This document shows positions 662-11,301 of a stretch of DNA of 19,502 bases, one piece after another (the first letter of the stretch is position 1; every line of letters starts with the position of its first letter). The stretch lies in the IMG/VR virus record IMGVR_UViG_2700989476_000014, one strand, 5' to 3'. Source of the DNA: a virus (lineage: Duplodnaviria > Heunggongvirae > Uroviricota > Caudoviricetes). The notes beneath the pieces were generated by a model, which saw only the letters and a list, made by a program, of their open reading frames with translations, made no database searches and was not told the origin of the DNA. Made by a program: the position numbers and the translations under genes.

Positions 662-665
662 GTCC

Positions 666-691
666 ATAAGAAAGCCCCTCCGGAGAGGGGC
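666..691 (-). terminator. Rho-independent terminator, minus-strand orientation (likely end of the tRNA transcription unit)
   Basis: GCCCCTC (674-680) / GAGGGGC (685-691) 7-bp stem with 4-nt loop; on the minus strand it is followed by TTTCTTAT. With 632-661 it forms a back-to-back terminator pair. Confidence 0.45.
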
Positions 692-928
692 TGGAGAGTG
701 GCGCTATGTGCCATTGCATGGTGCCGGGTGCCTCCCGGTGAATTCAGTACCAGCACCTGAATCCGCGATTATCCCATATAACTACTCGCTGATTGCCCCT
801 CCGCACAGGGGGATTCACCATGCCAGTTTCTTTTAACAAACTCCCCGCAAAACAGACAACTGTCAACCGTCTGAATTGTGAGACATTTAAAAAAAAGGCC
901 CGCAAAAGCGAGCCGGGAAAAATAAGTC

Positions 929-1005
929 TGGCGCGTTGTACTGGATTCGAACCAGTGACCGATTGCTTAGAAGGCAATTGCTCTGTCCGGCTGAGCTAAC
1001 AACGC
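929..1005 (-). tRNA. argO: tRNA-Arg (anticodon UCU, reads AGA/AGG)
   Basis: Minus-strand sequence GCGTTGTTAGCTCAGCCGGACAGAGCAATTGCCTTCTAAGCAATCGGTCACTGGTTCGAATCCAGTACAACGCGCCA: 7-bp acceptor stem, D-arm AGCTCAGCCGGACAGAGC, anticodon stem ATTGC/GCAAT with loop CTTCTAA (anticodon TCT), T-loop GGTTCGAATCC, 3' CCA encoded. Cloverleaf folded by hand, not by tRNAscan. Confidence 0.8.
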
Positions 1006-1018
1006 AGGGTACAGATAA

Positions 1019-1095
1019 TGGACCGCCATCGAGGACTCGAACCCCGCGCAACCAGCTTCGAAGGCTGGCGCTCTATCCCGATGAGCTAATGGCGG
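1019..1095 (-). tRNA. argN: tRNA-Arg (anticodon UCG)
   Basis: Minus-strand sequence CCGCCATTAGCTCATCGGGATAGAGCGCCAGCCTTCGAAGCTGGTTGCGCGGGGTTCGAGTCCTCGATGGCGGTCCA: anticodon stem CCAGC/GCTGG with loop CTTCGAA (anticodon TCG), T-loop GGTTCGAGTCC, 3' CCA encoded. Exact 5' end is +/- 1 nt. Confidence 0.75.
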
Positions 1096-1105
1096 TATGT
1101 GATAT

Positions 1106-1180
1106 GGTGGCCCTTGCTGGATTTGAACCAGCGACCTGGCGATTATGAGTCGCTCGCTCTCACCACTGAGCTAAAGTGCC
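1106..1180 (-). tRNA. ileZ: tRNA with CAU anticodon (Ile2-type/Met-like, as ileZ of lambdoid Stx phages)
   Basis: Minus-strand sequence GGCACTTTAGCTCAGTGGTGAGAGCGAGCGACTCATAATCGCCAGGTCGCTGGTTCAAATCCAGCAAGGGCCACCA: anticodon loop CTCATAA (anticodon CAT), T-loop GGTTCAAATCC, 3' CCA. One A:G mismatch in the acceptor stem. Ile versus Met identity cannot be decided from sequence alone. Confidence 0.7.
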
Positions 1181-8075: not shown

Positions 8076-8569
8076 TAAGCCCCCACGTAATTCCCTGACA
8101 GATACCACTCTTCACCCGATGCAGCGCGCTTGCTGCTTTTCCGTAAGCACCGCTCACGATGCGCCAGAAAATTGTTTCGTTCTGGCTGGGAGTGGCTTTC
8201 ACGGAATGCCTCCATCCACACCGTTGCAGCTCGACGGAATAAGCCCCTGGACTCCAGTTCTTCCGCCTGGCGAGTCAGGCACAAAATCACCTGCGGGTCG
8301 TTAGTGCCGACACAGAAATTGCGCACAGGTCTGGTTTCACGAACTGGTTGTGGTTCCGGCTCCTGTGCTCTCTCAGTCAGGCGCGGGAAATGTCTGCGTG
8401 TATCTCCTTCACAACGGTGAGCCACACGCCCACTCTGACGTAACTTGCTTGCTGACTGCAGAACGCGCTGCCGTGAGTAACCTGCAAAAGCATCCGCAAT
8501 GTCTCCGGAAGTACACCCCGGATGGGCTTCAATGAATTTCTGAACTTCATTCAAAAGACTCATGATCAC
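8075..8569 (-). CDS. Hypothetical protein (164 aa; same size and position as YfdN of CPS-53; C-terminus resembles PerC/ANR-type small regulators)
   Basis: 164-aa ORF, translationally coupled (ATGA) to the replication gene. C-terminal ...LTRQAEELESRGLFRRAATVWMEAF...HRERCLRKS... resembles PerC-like motifs as I remember them (uncertain). Confidence 0.6.
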   Translation of the reverse strand: MIMSLLNEVQKFIEAHPGCTSGDIADAFAGYSRQRVLQSASKLRQSGRVAHRCEGDTRRHFPRLTERAQEPEPQPVRETRPVRNFCVGTNDPQVILCLTRQAEELESRGLFRRAATVWMEAFRESHSQPERNNFLAHRERCLRKSSKRAASGEEWYLSGNYVGA

Positions 8570-9384
8570 CCCCTGAATCCTGCCGGGATCTGGCTGTAGT
8601 CCACGTTGTCGTAACTGGCTTTGAAGTACGGGTCCTCGCGTCTGGCTGCAGATACCGCAGGAACTTCCCAGGATTCTTCGAAATGACGATCCGGACCAAA
8701 GAACGTGACAGCCTGTTTCACAAATTGTGTGCCGCTGTTACCCATCGCAGATACCCAGCCCGCGTAGCGTTTCACACCTTCCAGCATGGTTTCGGGTTTT
8801 ACCCCCTCATTCAAACGGGCTTTCCAGGCTTTGAAGGCTGCAGATTTTGAATTGCCACCAGCACGTTTGGGGTATGCCAGCCATGCCTGCTCAAACTCCG
8901 GAGAGTATTCCGGTCGGTTTGAACGAACTCGCACAGACTCATCAGCAGATGCACCAACAGCTATTGGTTCATTGACTGGTTCTTTGACTGGTTCAAAAGA
9001 GTGACTGGTTCTGGGTGAATCTCCTGCACCACCCCCTGGTGCAACTCCTGCACTACCTGGTGAATTTGCTGCACCAGATAGTGAATTATTTGCACTACCC
9101 CCTAGTGAATCTCCTGCACCATCAAGATGAAGGAGATAGATATTACTTGAGTTACCTTTTTCACCTTTCCGGGTGACTTTTTTTACCAGCCCGGACTCAC
9201 AAAGGGCCGCAATATGATTCATCACAGAACGTTTGCTAATCTCGCACTGGTCAGCAATATGCTGGTAGCTGGGCCAGCACTCACCCTGATCGCTGGCATT
9301 ATCAGCCAGCTTGATCAGAACCAGTTTTCGCAATGGATTACCCACTCGAATTTTCATCGCTTTAACCATCAGCTCCATACTCAT
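8566..9384 (-). CDS. Replication initiator, lambda O-like (N-terminal HTH domain, Gly/Ser/Ala-rich linker encoded by iterons, C-terminal domain)
   Basis: Track ORF 8566..9423; I prefer ATG 9384-9382 (MSMELMVKAMKIRVGNPLRKLVLIKLADNASDQGECWPSYQHIADQCEISKRSVMNHIAALCESGLV...), which overlaps the stop of the 74-aa ORF as ATGA. The middle of the gene carries DNA iterons, as in lambda O. Confidence 0.8.
   Translation of the reverse strand: MSMELMVKAMKIRVGNPLRKLVLIKLADNASDQGECWPSYQHIADQCEISKRSVMNHIAALCESGLVKKVTRKGEKGNSSNIYLLHLDGAGDSLGGSANNSLSGAANSPGSAGVAPGGGAGDSPRTSHSFEPVKEPVNEPIAVGASADESVRVRSNRPEYSPEFEQAWLAYPKRAGGNSKSAAFKAWKARLNEGVKPETMLEGVKRYAGWVSAMGNSGTQFVKQAVTFFGPDRHFEESWEVPAVSAARREDPYFKASYDNVDYSQIPAGFRG
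8973..9121. repeat. Iteron array inside the O-like gene (candidate phage origin of replication)
   Basis: Three copies of TGACTGGTTC (8973-8995 and ~9003), then five ~18-bp iterons with consensus (G/A)GTGAAT(C/T)T(C/G)CTGCAC(C/T)A starting near 9014, 9038, 9059, 9080 and 9104 (21-24-bp spacing), followed by a more AT-rich stretch at 9121-9170. Confidence 0.55.
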
Positions 9385-9605
9385 GCTGCACCTCCGAGAT
9401 GCTTCATGTTTTTTCCGGAGCAAAAGGCTATAAGCGGCATACTGATGCGGTAATTACGGCCCAGCGGTTCACAAATCACCTTCTGACATTCACGGTCAAC
9501 CAGGCTAACACGTAGAACATGCCCTGCAGGCGTGGTGTACCACTGACCCGGACGAGGACAACGGAAAGTATGATTGGTAAACCGTTTGAAAATATTCCGG
9601 ATCAT
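9381..9605 (-). CDS. Hypothetical small protein (74 aa)
   Basis: ORF with ATGA overlaps to both the upstream Rha gene and the downstream O-like gene, which suggests it is translated. No family recognised. Confidence 0.4.
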   Translation of the reverse strand: MIRNIFKRFTNHTFRCPRPGQWYTTPAGHVLRVSLVDRECQKVICEPLGRNYRISMPLIAFCSGKNMKHLGGAA

Positions 9606-10147
9606 TTGCGCCCCCTTACCTCTGAAGGGTTCAGCGACAAATTTATGAGACTGGCCAGTAGCGCCGCGTCGTTGATGCGGTCATACAGACTTACAGCCAG
9701 CGGGGATTCGGCTTTTGCCAACATGGGATAAAGCTGCTGCAGCCAGACCTGATGAATTGATGAAATGTAGGAATAGAGAACGCTGGCGTTATGTGCAACG
9801 TCGCTCAGTACAGAGGGATTTGAAAGCTGTTTCTCCATCTGGTTAAAGGCATTGATGTATGCCTCTTTGAACCGGGCAGCACGTTTCCCCGTGAAGCCCA
9901 TGGCAAGAAACGCAAAACCGTCGCGGGTGATTTGGTAACAAGGGAGTTTGCGGCCTGTGCAATCGGTGTAATCACTGGGCTGAAAATTCAGCTCAGTGAA
10001 TTCAACAGAGCACTCAAGCGTCTGGATTTTTTGAATAACGTTTTTGTGCTGCTTGCAGAAATATTCGGCAACGGCCAAAGAAGAGGTAACAGCCTTCCCA
10101 TGGATAACATCAATTTTAGGGTGAGTTTGGGTAGGGGTGGTTGCCAT
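9602..10147 (-). CDS. Phage regulatory protein Rha (antirepressor-type)
   Basis: From the internal ATG at 10147-10145 (SD GAGGA 7 nt upstream): MATTPTQTHPKIDVIHGKAVTSSLAVAEYFCKQHKNVIQKIQTLE...YQITRDGFAFLAMGFTGKRAARFKEAYINAFNQMEKQL..., a typical Rha-domain sequence. The track ORF extends in frame to 10747 (381 aa). Confidence 0.75.
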   Translation of the reverse strand: MATTPTQTHPKIDVIHGKAVTSSLAVAEYFCKQHKNVIQKIQTLECSVEFTELNFQPSDYTDCTGRKLPCYQITRDGFAFLAMGFTGKRAARFKEAYINAFNQMEKQLSNPSVLSDVAHNASVLYSYISSIHQVWLQQLYPMLAKAESPLAVSLYDRINDAALLASLINLSLNPSEVRGRK

Positions 10148-10747
10148 AGTGACATCCTCATGTGCGAATTTTGAAAACTCACCACATGGGACGCCAATCA
10201 CAGAGGTGGTGAGACGTACAGGGTTGGCGTAACCGGTCGCACATGACCCCGGCGCATCTTTCGATGCCCCTGCACGCCCCACCATAATTTGGATGTGAGG
10301 AAACGTGCGCAAAAAAACCGCTGAAGCGCGGTTATGCGCATGTGCGAATTTCAGGACGCCAATCCCGGCACCCGCTTTATAAGGTGCCTGAACAGTGTAA
10401 CGTCCCGGAATTGCAGAATCAATATGCTGGTGGTCCTTCACACTCAACAAAATCACGCCTGAATTTCCACAAAGGACTAAAGCACTCATGCGGGTAGTCT
10501 TTGCGAAGATAGATAACGCGCTGTGTTTCTGGCTCCCAACGAATAACATGGACATAAAGCCCTCTTCCGTCACGAAACCAGCGGTTAAGTTCCTGCACAA
10601 CTCGCCCCCCACAGTCAGGTAAAGTTCTCTGTGGTTACTTACAGCCAGGTGATTTGGTAATCTGCATTCATGCCGTAACAACAGGTGTTCAGCGACGCTG
10701 ACCACCAGCTGTTGCGACAAACGGTTATTTGCCGTTAAACTATTCAT
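10148..10747 (-). other. In-frame 200-codon extension upstream of rha: either a fused N-terminal domain or a gene remnant; contains a terminator-like hairpin and a duplicated segment
   Basis: No stop codon over 200 codons; ATG 10747 overlaps the stop of the upstream gene (ATGA). It also contains a hairpin + T7 (minus-strand reading, ~10306-10330) and two copies of GATTGGCGTC...AAATTCGCACATG (10339-10364 and 10159-10199). The GNSG/DHQH/AHAH spacing is reminiscent of a degenerate metallophosphoesterase (weak). Confidence 0.3.
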
Positions 10748-11301
10748 GCGTTAGTTTCTCCACAACCAGAAGCAATCGACGCCACGACGCCCGGAGCTGC
10801 ACACTCGCGGGCGTTACTCTTTTCTGGAGCGCAGAAGATTTTGTAGACCAGTGCTGCATGCTCCTGGAGCTTCGAAATTGAAAGATACAGTTCGTCGTTA
10901 ATTGCTGTCTTCTCATGCGGTTCCACTACACCGTCTTCGATTGCTGAACGAATCTGTCTGGAATAACTGCCGATCTGTTCAATGACTTCCAGCAGGCGCT
11001 GGTTTATATCGGCGTTCTCTACTGCCTCAATTTCAGGAAGCGATACGAACACCCCACCAGCAGACTGTGCGACAGCATCCGCAATGTAGTGAGTGCCAGC
11101 CGCACGCTGTAAAACCATTGCCCATCCCAGCGGGAAAATCTGATCGCCATCTGCACGAAGGCGGTTGAATAATGCGTTCTCTGTTACATCCAGCCACTCA
11201 GCAGCTTCAGCGTAACCCCCCGGCAACGCCGCGATAGTTTTTCTGACAGCTTTCACGTACCACTCAGGCTGTTTTTCCACTTTCCAGTGATGATTACCCA
11301 C
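10744..11301 (-). CDS. Regulatory protein in the cII position (CII/CP76-like or YdaT-like; family not resolved)
   Basis: 185-aa ORF immediately downstream of cro with an 8-nt overlap; MGNHHWKVEKQPEWYVKAVRKTIAALPGGYAEAAEWLDVTENALFNRLR... Assignment rests on position and a loose recollection of the family. Confidence 0.55.
   Translation of the reverse strand: MGNHHWKVEKQPEWYVKAVRKTIAALPGGYAEAAEWLDVTENALFNRLRADGDQIFPLGWAMVLQRAAGTHYIADAVAQSAGGVFVSLPEIEAVENADINQRLLEVIEQIGSYSRQIRSAIEDGVVEPHEKTAINDELYLSISKLQEHAALVYKIFCAPEKSNARECAAPGVVASIASGCGETNA

What the first reader, a model, noticed from the sequence alone, without database searches (positions are those of the whole stretch)
10148..10747. Chimeric rha ORF: 200 in-frame upstream codons containing a terminator-like hairpin and a duplicated rha-leader segment
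The Rha domain starts at an internal ATG (10147) with its own SD, yet the reading frame stays open for 200 more codons up to an ATG that overlaps the upstream gene's stop. Inside this extension is a hairpin + T7 on the coding strand (~10306-10330) and two copies of GATTGGCGTC…AAATTCGCACATG (10339-10364 and 10159-10199), the second forming the rha leader/RBS. This looks like the scar of a duplication or recombination that fused a degraded upstream gene (possibly metallophosphoesterase-like) to rha, or like an unusual two-start gene.
Basis: seen in the sequence. Interest (0 to 1): 0.45.

Follow-up and report, generated by a model that had tools for sequence, protein, structure and literature searches.

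The report
RNA switch nested in rha gene
The 200 "extra" codons in front of this prophage rha gene are not a degraded fused gene: they carry a known two-RNA switch (IsrK and C4 antisense RNA, with their matching target sites) that controls Rha, laid out like the phage P4 eta/kil genes and routinely mis-annotated as protein.

Summary
ORF 9602..10747(-) runs 200 codons beyond the Rha start (ATG 10147) to an ATG overlapping the ymfL stop, and it holds a hairpin+T7 and a two-part repeat. The "recombination scar" interpretation is wrong. The extension contains: a DUF4222 gene in another frame (10598..10419); a promoter-like site; the IsrK sRNA (10387..10311, ending at the hairpin+T7, carrying repeat copy 1); the C4 antisense RNA (10289..10202); and repeat copy 2, which abuts the rha Shine-Dalgarno. 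Both repeat halves are complementary to two C4 segments and co-vary with them across 59 sister modules (14 specificity combinations). This is the P1 c4 / P4 seqA-CI-seqC / Gifsy-1 IsrK-orf45-anrP system. Amino-acid constraint starts only at ATG 10147 (variable columns 24/30/77 of 90 by codon position in Rha, against 52/52/51 of 80 in the RNA module). Yet the frame through the module never acquires a stop (0 of 29 distinct stop sites; all indels 3n), and in other contexts it starts at an ATG coupled to the upstream gene. That matches P4's nested eta/kil genes, where translation of the long form overrides RNA immunity. Verdict: a new member of a known kind. The "two-start gene" alternative is partly right.

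The parts
10744..10747 (-). ATGA junction: stop (TGA 10746..10744) of the ymfL/cII-like gene overlaps the ATG (10747..10745) of the long ORF
   Evidence: YmfL NF041471, 169 bits. P4 has the same ACGCATGA junction between ORF88 and eta.
9602..10747 (-). Long open frame (381 codons), annotated in RefSeq as 'Rha family phage regulatory protein' WP_001087340.1; proposed eta-like long form
   Evidence: Pfam Phage_ASH at residues 117-211 plus Phage_pRha at 221-306.
10599..10743 (-). Segment A: between the ymfL stop and the DUF4222 start. No coding signature in the long frame.
   Evidence: Variable columns by long-frame codon position 12/18/15 of about 49 each; one relative has an in-frame stop here.
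10419..10598 (-). DUF4222 gene (59 aa, GTG start), in a different frame from the long ORF. This is the amino-acid-constrained frame here.
   Evidence: Pfam DUF4222 51 bits; phrog_1343; variable columns by DUF4222 codon position 25/25/43 of 59; annotated in FORC_043.
10394..10422 (-). Inferred IsrK promoter: -35 TTGATT (10422..10417), 17-nt spacer, -10 TACACT (10399..10394); start about 10387. The DUF4222 stop TGA lies inside the -35.
   Evidence: Read from the sequence. Nearly invariant behind different upstream genes. Only 8/12 to consensus, so not listed by the promoter scan. The start is inferred from Rfam model position 1, which equals the published Gifsy-1 +1.
10311..10387 (-). IsrK sRNA (P4 seqA / P1 a1b1 equivalent): 5' hairpin, a1 in the loop of hairpin 2, single-stranded b1, intrinsic terminator
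   Evidence: Rfam RF01394 62.3 bits (cutoff 50); fold.
10354..10364 (-). a1 target site (GATTGGCGTCC), repeat copy 1, first half
   Evidence: Complementary to C4 a' (I6). The homologous Gifsy-1 G28/G31 pair with C162/C159.
10339..10351 (-). b1 target site (AAATTCGCACATG), repeat copy 1, second half
   Evidence: Complementary to the C4 b' loop (I7).
10311..10333 (-).
   Evidence: Conserved, with altered stems, in all sister modules.
10202..10289 (-). C4 antisense RNA (P4 CI / Salmonella STnc1160 equivalent)
   Evidence: Rfam RF01695 75.1 bits (cutoff 45). Fold: 100% of cells paired, 12/27 pairs compensatory.
10283..10285 (-). ATG embedded at the 5' end of C4; equivalent to the first start of Gifsy-1 orf45 (A107). 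Here it is in frame with rha (138 nt upstream), giving a possible 227-aa form.
   Evidence: (in frame in 59/59).
10237..10246 (-). b' recognition loop of C4 (UCAUGUGCGA)
   Evidence: I2: 10 nt perfect with 10167..10158; I7: 9 nt with b1; co-variation.
10221..10230 (-). a' recognition segment of C4 (ACGCCAACCC)
   Evidence: I6; co-variation.
10189..10199 (-). a2 target site (GATTGGCGTCC), repeat copy 2, first half (P4 seqC equivalent)
10155..10171 (-). b2 target site (10171..10159), overlapping the rha Shine-Dalgarno GAGGA (10159..10155)
   Evidence: The 10-nt C4 b' duplex covers 10167..10158, including the first two bases of the SD.
9602..10147 (-). rha proper: 181-aa Rha-family regulator from the internal ATG 10147 (kil-like short form). 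The only part with amino-acid-level constraint.
   Evidence: Pfam Phage_pRha 113 bits, TIGR02681 116 bits. Variable columns by codon position 24/30/77 of 90.
9381..9605 (-). Downstream 74-aa ORF whose ATG overlaps the rha stop (ATGA); it leads into the replication gene 8566..9423
   Evidence: phrog_1153.

Best explanation
The 'extension' is a P4/P1-type RNA immunity module sitting inside, and in frame with, a two-start gene.

Shown:
- A promoter-like site at 10422..10394 precedes IsrK (10387..10311).
- IsrK ends at the hairpin+T7 and displays target sites a1/b1.
- Downstream lies the C4 antisense RNA (10289..10202). Its two exposed segments a'/b' are complementary to a1/b1 and to a second copy, a2/b2, that abuts and overlaps the Shine-Dalgarno of rha.

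Inferred from experiments on homologues (Gifsy-1, P4):
- In the lysogen the internal promoter makes mostly short IsrK plus some read-through RNA, from which C4 is released.
- C4 pairs with a2/b2 and keeps rha untranslated.
- Excess IsrK, which carries the same sites, acts as a decoy and switches Rha on.
- Translation can also enter at the ATG embedded at the 5' end of C4 (10285). In Gifsy-1 that ATG starts orf45 and is translationally coupled to the antirepressor gene. Here it is fused in frame to rha.

Inferred from comparative data plus the P4 precedent:
- When the region is transcribed from the early promoter upstream (cro, ymfL), ribosomes enter the long frame at ATG 10747, which is coupled to the ymfL stop.
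- They translate straight through terminator, C4 and target sites. This would override the RNA control and prevent termination or polarity on rha and the replication genes downstream.
- The upstream 200 codons would therefore serve as a ribosome track, not as a protein domain.
For: RNA identity: Rfam C4 75.1 bits and isrK 62.3 bits, both above their cutoffs. The same pair is found in all relatives, in Gifsy-1 and in P4.

C4 fold: 100% of cells paired, 12/27 pairs with compensatory changes, covariation 0.452 against <=0.087 for slid controls.

Targets: exact complementarity within the window. Across 59 distinct modules there are 11 b' loops x 6 a' segments in 14 combinations. Mean longest exact complementary run, cognate vs non-cognate: b':leader 9.2 vs 4.1 nt; b':IsrK 7.3 vs 4.0 nt.

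Experimental anchor: all 12 published Gifsy-1 positions map onto the homologous elements. G28/G31 lie in a1, C159/C162 in a', and A107 is the C4-embedded ATG (PMC4825925).

Coding tests (variable columns by codon position 1/2/3): Rha 24/30/77 of 90; DUF4222 25/25/43 of 59; RNA module 52/52/51 of 80; segment A 12/18/15.

Frame kept open: 59/59 modules have no stop in the rha frame from the promoter to the ATG, against means of 3.8 and 1.9 in the other frames. Distinct stop sites by phase are 0/14/15 (naive (2/3)^29, about 8e-6). All length differences are multiples of three (116/119 and 138/141 nt).

Broader sample: 96 open and 43 closed modules. In 59 of 84 assessable open modules the first in-frame ATG lies within 4 nt of the stop of an upstream ORF of >=50 codons, with >=6 different junction sequences. 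Most of the others have an ATG at a fixed -156..-162 nt.

P4 parallel: eta (199 aa) starts at an ATGA overlap with ORF88, contains isrK/seqA and C4/CI in frame, and Kil starts MATTLTPSHPE against MATTPTQTHPK here. Eta translation is reported to prevent termination (PMC10111431).
Against: - No expression data for this locus were available. The promoter matches consensus only 8/12 and was not flagged by the scan.
- The long frame overlaps the constrained DUF4222 gene out of frame for 60 codons. Upstream of the promoter it shows no coding signature, sequence diversity there is low, and one relative (L004 type) carries an in-frame stop in segment A.
- Gifsy-1 and 1717-type modules function (Gifsy-1) or exist without an open upstream frame. 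So translation from upstream is not required for the module as such.
- The stop-site statistics treat sites as independent, although the sequences are related and b1/b2 are copies in the same phase.
- Openness between 10285 and 10147 can be explained by the orf45-type uORF alone. The evidence that needs translation from further upstream is weaker: 0 of 12 stop sites (naive (2/3)^12, about 0.008) plus the ATG-coupling pattern.
- Rha's biochemical role as an antirepressor is assumed from family names only.
Confidence: 0.6

Rival explanations
1. The RNA module is real, but the long open frame is never translated and has no function. Only the 181-aa Rha (and perhaps the orf45-like uORF from 10285) is made. 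The 381-codon ORF is purely an annotation artefact that is open by descent.
For: No amino-acid-level constraint anywhere upstream of 10147. DUF4222 in another frame is the constrained gene. An in-frame stop occurs in segment A in one relative. Gifsy-1 and 1717-type modules lack an open frame. RefSeq itself annotates identical DNA in two ways.
Against: 0 of 29 distinct stop sites fall in this frame inside the module, although 14 and 15 fall in the other two. Only 3n indels occur. Behind unrelated upstream genes the frame begins at an ATG overlapping that gene's stop, or at a fixed position just upstream of the promoter. P4 eta is reported to be translated in the same arrangement.
Confidence: 0.3
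2. One reading: a duplication or recombination scar fused a degraded upstream gene (metallophosphoesterase-like) to rha. The repeats are the duplication remnants and the hairpin is a stranded terminator.
For: Direct repeats 165-180 nt apart and a terminator inside an ORF do look like a rearrangement. Recombination between module parts does occur in relatives: mosaic b1/b' combinations and tandem modules.
Against: Both repeat halves are complementary to C4 and co-vary with it. The same architecture is conserved in P4, Gifsy-1 and >140 distinct modules. No phosphoesterase or other degraded-gene signal was found. The hairpin+T7 is part of the Rfam isrK model.
Confidence: 0.03
3. A genuine two-domain protein: 'Ash' is a folded protein domain fused to Rha, and the RNA family hits are incidental.
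For: Pfam PF10554 matches (54.6 bits). There are >1,300 database homologues named 'ash family protein', some fused to Rha.
Against: Variability is flat across codon positions in the Ash region (52/52/51 of 80), against 24/30/77 of 90 in Rha. Helices change by compensatory base-pair substitutions that alter the encoded residues. The Pfam match covers exactly IsrK + C4 + targets, here and in P4. RNA function has been shown experimentally in Gifsy-1.
Confidence: 0.03

Closest known systems
Phage P4 immunity region: seqA - CI RNA - seqC nested in the eta/kil genes (Forti et al. 1999, as summarised in PMC10111431)
   Same: - The long ORF starts at an ATG overlapping the stop of the upstream regulator gene (ACGCATGA in both).
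- isrK/seqA and C4/CI lie inside the ORF and in frame.
- The ATG at the C4 5' end is in frame.
- The SD and internal start after seqC are nearly identical in the window's relatives (GGAGGCTGCCATCATGGCTAC).
- The short products start MATT...HP in both.
- Pfam Phage_ASH covers the module in both.

   Different: - The payload is a 181-aa Rha-family regulator, not the 65-aa Icd-like Kil.
- The host element is a lambdoid prophage, and the module sits in the early-right operon between ymfL (cII-like) and the replication genes.
- About 330 nt, including a DUF4222 gene in another frame, lie between the coupled ATG and the promoter. In P4 that distance is about 75 nt.
- P4 immunity works through Rho-dependent termination. 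Whether the same applies here is unknown.
Salmonella Gifsy-1 isrK - orf45 (STnc1160) - anrP locus (Hershko-Shalev et al. 2016, PMC4825925)
   Same: - Same order: promoter, IsrK with a leaky intrinsic terminator, C4-type RNA, second target copy, SD, regulator gene.
- All 12 published positions map to a1, a' and the C4-embedded ATG.
- The a1 sequence GATTGGCGTC and the a' sequence TTACGCCAAC are identical to the window's.
   Different: - In Gifsy-1, orf45 is out of frame and ends in an AUGA overlap with anrP. Here the same ATG is fused in frame to rha.
- In Gifsy-1 the payload frame is closed upstream, with no eta-like long ORF.
- AnrP is an ORF6N-domain protein with no detectable similarity to this Rha.
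- The Gifsy-1 locus lies after antQ in the late region, and its promoter sequence is different.
Phage P1/P7 immI: c4 antisense RNA - icd - ant (my own knowledge of Citron & Schuster 1990 and Biere et al. 1992; not read here)
   Same: A C4 RNA with two recognition segments complementary to a1/b1 upstream and a2/b2 at the ribosome-binding site of the first downstream gene. Specificity differences in these segments give heteroimmunity. The Rfam C4 family was defined on it.
   Different: P1 has a separate icd gene between c4 and ant. No IsrK-type terminated sRNA has been described for a1/b1.
Pfam PF10554 Phage_ASH / NCBI 'ash family protein'
   Same: The window's residues 117-211 match at 54.6 bits. 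The top homologues of residues 1-200 are named this way.
   Different: The family appears to be the conceptual translation of the RNA module, not a protein domain: there is no codon-position bias.

Membership tests
Rfam RF01695 C4 antisense RNA | Covariance-model score at or above the gathering cutoff (45 bits) over the full model | tested here: met
   75.1 bits, model positions 1-87 of 87, at 10289..10202(-).
Rfam RF01695 C4 antisense RNA | Long closing stem enclosing two hairpins, supported by compensatory changes | tested here: met
   17 sequences including P4, Gifsy-1 and 1717: 100% of cells paired, 12/27 pairs compensatory, covariation 0.452 vs 0.216 (shuffled) and <=0.087 (slid).
Rfam RF01695 C4 antisense RNA | Two exposed segments (a', b') complementary to two-part targets upstream (a1/b1) and at the RBS of the downstream gene (a2/b2) | tested here: met
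   Exact 9-10 nt complements in the window. Cognate vs non-cognate complementarity 9.2 vs 4.1 nt across 59 modules.
Rfam RF01695 C4 antisense RNA | Processed, stable ~80-nt RNA that represses the downstream gene in vivo | not testable with these tools
   No expression data for this locus. STnc1160 was detected in Gifsy-1.
Rfam RF01394 isrK | Covariance-model score at or above the gathering cutoff (50 bits) | tested here: met
   62.3 bits, model positions 1-77 of 77, at 10387..10311(-).
Rfam RF01394 isrK | Rho-independent terminator at the 3' end | tested here: met
   Stem 10333..10316 plus T7.
Rfam RF01394 isrK | Own promoter directly upstream | tested here: inconclusive
   TTGATT-17-TACACT lies 7 nt before model position 1 and is nearly invariant across contexts. 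It matches consensus only 8/12 and was not listed by the scan. No start-site data exist.
Rfam RF03163 c4-a1b1 | Covariance-model score at or above the gathering cutoff (46.7 bits) | tested here: not met
   21.6 bits, E = 0.0027, at 10400..10348. Gifsy-1 reaches 48.1 bits. The a1/b1 function is supported independently.
P4 eta/kil-type nested genes | Long ORF whose ATG overlaps the stop of the upstream gene | tested here: met
   ATGA at 10747..10744. P4 has ATGA at 8767..8764.
P4 eta/kil-type nested genes | seqA, CI and seqC lie inside the long ORF, whose frame continues into an internal SD+ATG giving a shorter product | tested here: met
   The frame is open in 59/59 sister modules.
P4 eta/kil-type nested genes | The long form is translated only from an upstream promoter, and its translation prevents immunity-specific termination | not testable with these tools
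   Only indirect support: stop-site depletion 0/14/15, 3n indels, and ATG coupling in >=6 contexts.
P4 eta/kil-type nested genes | Short product is an Icd/Kil-like cell-division inhibitor | tested here: not met
   The payload here is Rha (TIGR02681, 116 bits) with no phage_ICD_like hit. P4 Kil hits phage_ICD_like at 76 bits.
Pfam PF09669 Phage_pRha / TIGR02681 | Profile score above the curated cutoff | tested here: met
   113 bits (cutoff 29.9) and 116 bits (cutoff 45.95) for the 181-aa form.
Pfam PF10554 Phage_ASH | Profile score above the curated cutoff (26 bits) | tested here: met
   54.6 bits at residues 117-211. However, there is no amino-acid-level constraint.
   No such hit in Pfam, NCBIfam or PHROGs.

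The most novel reading that the evidence does not exclude
In a large class of lambdoid prophages, including this O104:H4 prophage and many Stx phages, the frame across the IsrK-C4 module may be maintained purely as a ribosome conduit: a stretch that must be translatable, while its encoded residues are free to vary. Early-promoter transcripts would then override a combinatorial (at least 11 x 6) RNA immunity code that gates Rha and the replication genes. On this reading, the thousands of database proteins called 'ash family protein' (Pfam PF10554) would be translations of RNA genes, not a protein family.
Probability: 0.4. Interest if true: 0.55.

Novelty: new member of a known kind. Interest (0 to 1): 0.35.

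Why it matters
1. **Annotation.** Identical DNA is annotated in RefSeq as a 381-aa Rha, or as a 295-aa Rha plus DUF4222. Phage records call it 'peptidase', 'antirepressor' or 'ash family protein'. None of these records annotates the two RNAs. The amino-acid-constrained product is the 181-aa Rha.
2. **Biology.** The locus places a P4/P1-type RNA control layer, with many interchangeable specificities, in the early operon of a prophage of the 2011 outbreak strain and of many Stx-converting phages. Co-resident prophages with matching or mismatching C4/IsrK specificities could cross-regulate each other's Rha/antirepressor expression and hence induction.
3. **General point.** It is a clear example of a reading frame kept open with no selection on the encoded residues. 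It is also a caution that a Pfam family can arise from conserved RNA.

Tried and rejected
- The promoter scan did not list the inferred IsrK promoter, because it matches consensus only 8/12. The promoter is therefore reported as inferred.
- A first attempt to analyse stop sites upstream of the promoter mixed non-homologous upstream genes and was uninformative (segments A/B, 42). It was redone on true DUF4222 homologues and on segment A.
- The primary P4 paper (PMC94026) is not held. I relied on the summary in PMC10111431.
- MFE folding of the read-through leader shows the C4 stem and a local hairpin over a2-b2-SD, but not the a1:a' 'structure A' reported for Gifsy-1. Nested MFE folding cannot represent loop-loop pairing, so nothing is concluded from this.
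- BLASTP of Rha against Gifsy-1 AnrP found no similarity, so the payloads are not homologous.
- The 77-aa payload of sister modules has no NCBIfam match, so I do not call it Icd-like.
- The 47-aa ORF 10198..10341 was considered as the orf45 equivalent and rejected. The Gifsy-1 numbering puts the orf45 start at the C4-embedded ATG, which corresponds to window 10285.
- P1 itself was not fetched. The comparison with P1 rests on my own knowledge.
Full report
**Observation**

On the minus strand, ORF 9602..10747 is 381 codons long. Pfam places the Rha domain at residues 221-306. The internal ATG at 10147 is preceded by GAGGA at 10159..10155. The upstream ATG (10747..10745) overlaps the TGA of the preceding ymfL/cII-like gene as ATGA.

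A hairpin (stem 10333..10316) followed by seven T (10317..10311) lies inside the ORF. The two-part repeat is exact. GATTGGCGTCC occurs at 10364..10354 and 10199..10189. AAATTCGCACATG occurs at 10351..10339 and 10171..10159. Each has 2 matches against 0.01 or fewer expected by chance.

**What the extension contains**

A scan of the window against Rfam finds two RNA families above their curated cutoffs inside the extension:
- C4 antisense RNA at 10289..10202 (75.1 bits, cutoff 45).
- isrK at 10387..10311 (62.3 bits, cutoff 50).

Repeat copy 1 (a1/b1) lies inside IsrK, with a1 in the loop of its second hairpin. Repeat copy 2 (a2/b2) lies between C4 and rha. The last base of b2 is the first base of the rha Shine-Dalgarno, and the 10-nt perfect duplex with the C4 loop covers 10167..10158.

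Further upstream, a 59-aa DUF4222 gene (10598..10419) occupies a different frame (Pfam 51 bits; phrog_1343). Its TGA lies inside the hexamer TTGATT. Together with TACACT 17 nt downstream, that hexamer forms a promoter-like site 7 nt before IsrK position 1. This promoter is inferred: it matches consensus only 8/12 and the scan did not list it.

**Genomic setting**

The window is 100% identical to a prophage of E. coli O104:H4. The gene order is: cI-like repressor, cro-like gene, ymfL, this locus, a 74-aa ORF, then a replication gene.

RefSeq annotates identical DNA in two ways: as a 381-aa Rha protein, or as DUF4222 plus a 295-aa Rha. Neither version annotates an RNA. Phage records call the homologous ORF 'putative antirepressor', 'peptidase' or 'Sb41, similar to P4 ORF199'.

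**Comparative evidence for the RNA mechanism**

I collected 120 viral contigs sharing a 19-nt motif at the IsrK 5' end. They gave 61 distinct modules, of which 59 could be parsed. Three results follow.

- *Co-variation of recognition sites.* The C4 recognition segments and both target copies co-vary. There are 11 distinct b' loops and 6 a' segments in 14 combinations. The mean longest exact complementary run is 9.2 nt (b' with its own leader) and 7.3 nt (b' with its own IsrK), against 4.1 and 4.0 nt for non-cognate pairs.
- *The C4 fold.* I tested it on 17 sequences that include P4, Gifsy-1 and phage 1717. All cells are paired, 12 of 27 pairs show compensatory changes, and the covariation score is 0.452, against 0.216 for shuffles and at most 0.087 for slid controls.
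- *Experimental anchor.* The published Gifsy-1 work (PMC4825925) shows several things. IsrK transcripts partly read through the terminator into orf45-anrP. The read-through RNA is translationally silent because the middle of IsrK pairs with orf45 sequences. IsrK supplied in trans activates translation more than 100-fold. A processed RNA (STnc1160) arises downstream of IsrK. Numbering Gifsy-1 from Rfam isrK position 1 reproduces all 12 published nucleotides. G28 and G31 fall in a1 (GATTGGCGTC, the same sequence as here). C159 and C162 fall in the C4 a' segment. A107, the orf45 start, is the ATG embedded at the 5' end of C4, which corresponds to window 10285.

The repeats are therefore C4 target sites, not duplication remnants.

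**Is the long frame coding?**

Counting variable alignment columns by codon position (1/2/3) separates the parts clearly.

| Region | Variable columns by codon position |
|---|---|
| Rha domain, downstream of ATG 10147 | 24/30/77 of 90 |
| DUF4222, in its own frame | 25/25/43 of 59 |
| RNA module 10387..10148, in the long frame | 52/52/51 of 80 |
| Segment A, 10750..10599, in the long frame | 12/18/15 of about 49 each |

So there is no amino-acid-level selection anywhere upstream of 10147 in the long frame.

The Pfam 'Phage_ASH' match to residues 117-211 covers exactly IsrK + C4 + targets. In P4 the same profile covers the seqA-CI-seqC stretch of Eta (82 bits). The more than 1,300 homologues of residues 1-200, mostly named 'ash family protein', are therefore best read as translations of a conserved RNA module.

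**But the frame is kept open**

Several observations argue that the frame is nevertheless maintained.

- In all 59 modules, the rha frame has no stop from 20 nt before the motif to the rha ATG. The other two frames average 3.8 and 1.9 stops.
- Distinct stop sites between 10418 and 10148 number 0, 14 and 15 in the three phases. A naive (2/3)^29 is about 8e-6. The sites are not fully independent, so this figure overstates the significance.
- All length differences are multiples of three (116/119 nt and 138/141 nt).
- The C4-embedded ATG is in frame with the rha ATG in 59 of 59 modules.
- A broader, promoter-independent sample of 148 distinct C4 modules is bimodal. In 96 the frame is open through the whole module and the uORF is fused in frame. 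In 43 the frame is closed, as in Gifsy-1 and phage 1717.
- In the open class, 59 of 84 assessable modules begin at an ATG within 4 nt of the stop of an upstream ORF of at least 50 codons, with at least six different junction sequences. Most of the rest have an ATG at a fixed -156..-162 nt from the C4 ATG, often behind a Shine-Dalgarno-like purine run.

**The P4 parallel**

This is the architecture of phage P4.
- Rfam finds isrK (8692..8615) and C4 (8507..8420) inside the eta frame.
- Eta (199 aa) starts at an ATG overlapping the ORF88 stop. The junction reads ACGCATGA, the same as in the window.
- The C4-embedded ATG is in frame with eta.
- The nested Kil product starts MATTLTPSHPE, against MATTPTQTHPK here.

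According to PMC10111431 (citing Forti et al. 1999), eta has an internal constitutive promoter. Kil is the truncated form made on read-through. Full-length Eta is made only from an upstream promoter, coupled to the upstream gene. Its translation prevents termination.

**Most likely mechanism**

*In the lysogen.* This part is shown for the sequence features and inferred for the activity. The internal promoter makes IsrK and some read-through RNA that yields C4. C4 pairs with a2/b2 at the rha ribosome-binding site and keeps Rha off. IsrK carries the same sites and acts as a decoy that can switch Rha on.

*On early-promoter transcription.* This part is inferred. Ribosomes coupled from ymfL would translate through the terminator, C4 and target sites. 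That would make expression of rha and the downstream replication genes insensitive to the RNA control.

Three products are possible: 381, 227 and 181 aa.

The weakest link is the first 116 codons. They overlap DUF4222 out of frame, they show no coding signature, and one relative has an in-frame stop there. My confidence is about 0.95 for the RNA module and its targets, and about 0.5 for translation of the long form.

**Comparison and novelty**

The locus is a member of Rfam C4 and isrK by every testable criterion. It falls below threshold for RF03163, c4-a1b1 (21.6 against 46.7 bits).

It works like P4 eta/kil but differs in three ways. The payload is Rha rather than an Icd-like Kil. The host element is a lambdoid early operon. 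A DUF4222 gene is inserted between the coupled start and the promoter.

It differs from Gifsy-1 in that the orf45-type uORF is fused in frame and the upstream frame is open.

RNA genes embedded in Bro-network genes have already been noted for P4 and for satellites. This is therefore a new member of a known kind. It is useful mainly as an annotation correction and as a clean example of a frame kept open without selection on the encoded residues.

Noticed in passing
window 662..852(-) and 929..1180(-): An STnc100 sRNA (140 bits) lies next to a cluster of three tRNA genes: Arg-tct, Arg-tcg and Met-cat.
   Followed up: no
L160 (three copies 656 nt apart); L043, L052, L086, L145, L146, L207, L223 (two copies): Some viral contigs carry tandem arrays of IsrK-C4-payload modules. 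In L043 the second module's frame starts at the ATGA overlapping the stop of the first module's Rha.
   Followed up: partly
L029-type, L004/L007-type and L010 modules: In these mosaic modules, the b1 site in IsrK does not match the b' loop of the module's own C4 (4-5 nt), although b2 does (8-10 nt). This suggests recombination between isrK and C4, or an IsrK that acts as decoy for a different C4.
   Followed up: partly
L064:8738-9270: Two isrK copies lie 238 nt apart with no C4 after them, apparently a rearranged or decayed locus.
   Followed up: no
window 9602..10747; L001 and L002: RefSeq annotates identical DNA differently: WP_001087340.1 (381 aa) versus WP_225375535.1 (295 aa) plus DUF4222 WP_001379286.1. 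Neither record annotates IsrK or C4. Phage records name the ORF 'peptidase' or 'putative antirepressor'.
   Followed up: yes
Pfam PF10554 / NCBI 'ash family protein' (P0005-P0120): The Ash family appears to be the conceptual translation of the seqA-CI-seqC RNA module. Variability is flat across codon positions, and the profile spans exactly the RNA elements, both here and in P4.
   Followed up: yes
L132:8168-8365(-) (P4 kil): P4 Kil (65 aa) matches NCBIfam phage_ICD_like at 76 bits. This links the P4 kil payload to P1 icd. The 77-aa payload common in sister modules of the window has no NCBIfam match.
   Followed up: partly
L007 (Salmonella phage ST64B sb41 region): Owen et al. 2020 (PMC7067206) report an uncharacterised ncRNA, STnc1310, and two genes downstream of the ST64B repressor that are induced by peroxide and nitric oxide. 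This may be the ST64B homologue of this module. I did not verify the coordinates.
   Followed up: no
window 9381..9605(-) and 8566..9423(-): The genes after rha are chained by overlapping stop/start codons: the rha stop overlaps the ATG of a 74-aa ORF (phrog_1153), which in turn overlaps the start region of the HTH_36/DnaD_N replication gene. Control at the module could therefore propagate to replication.
   Followed up: no
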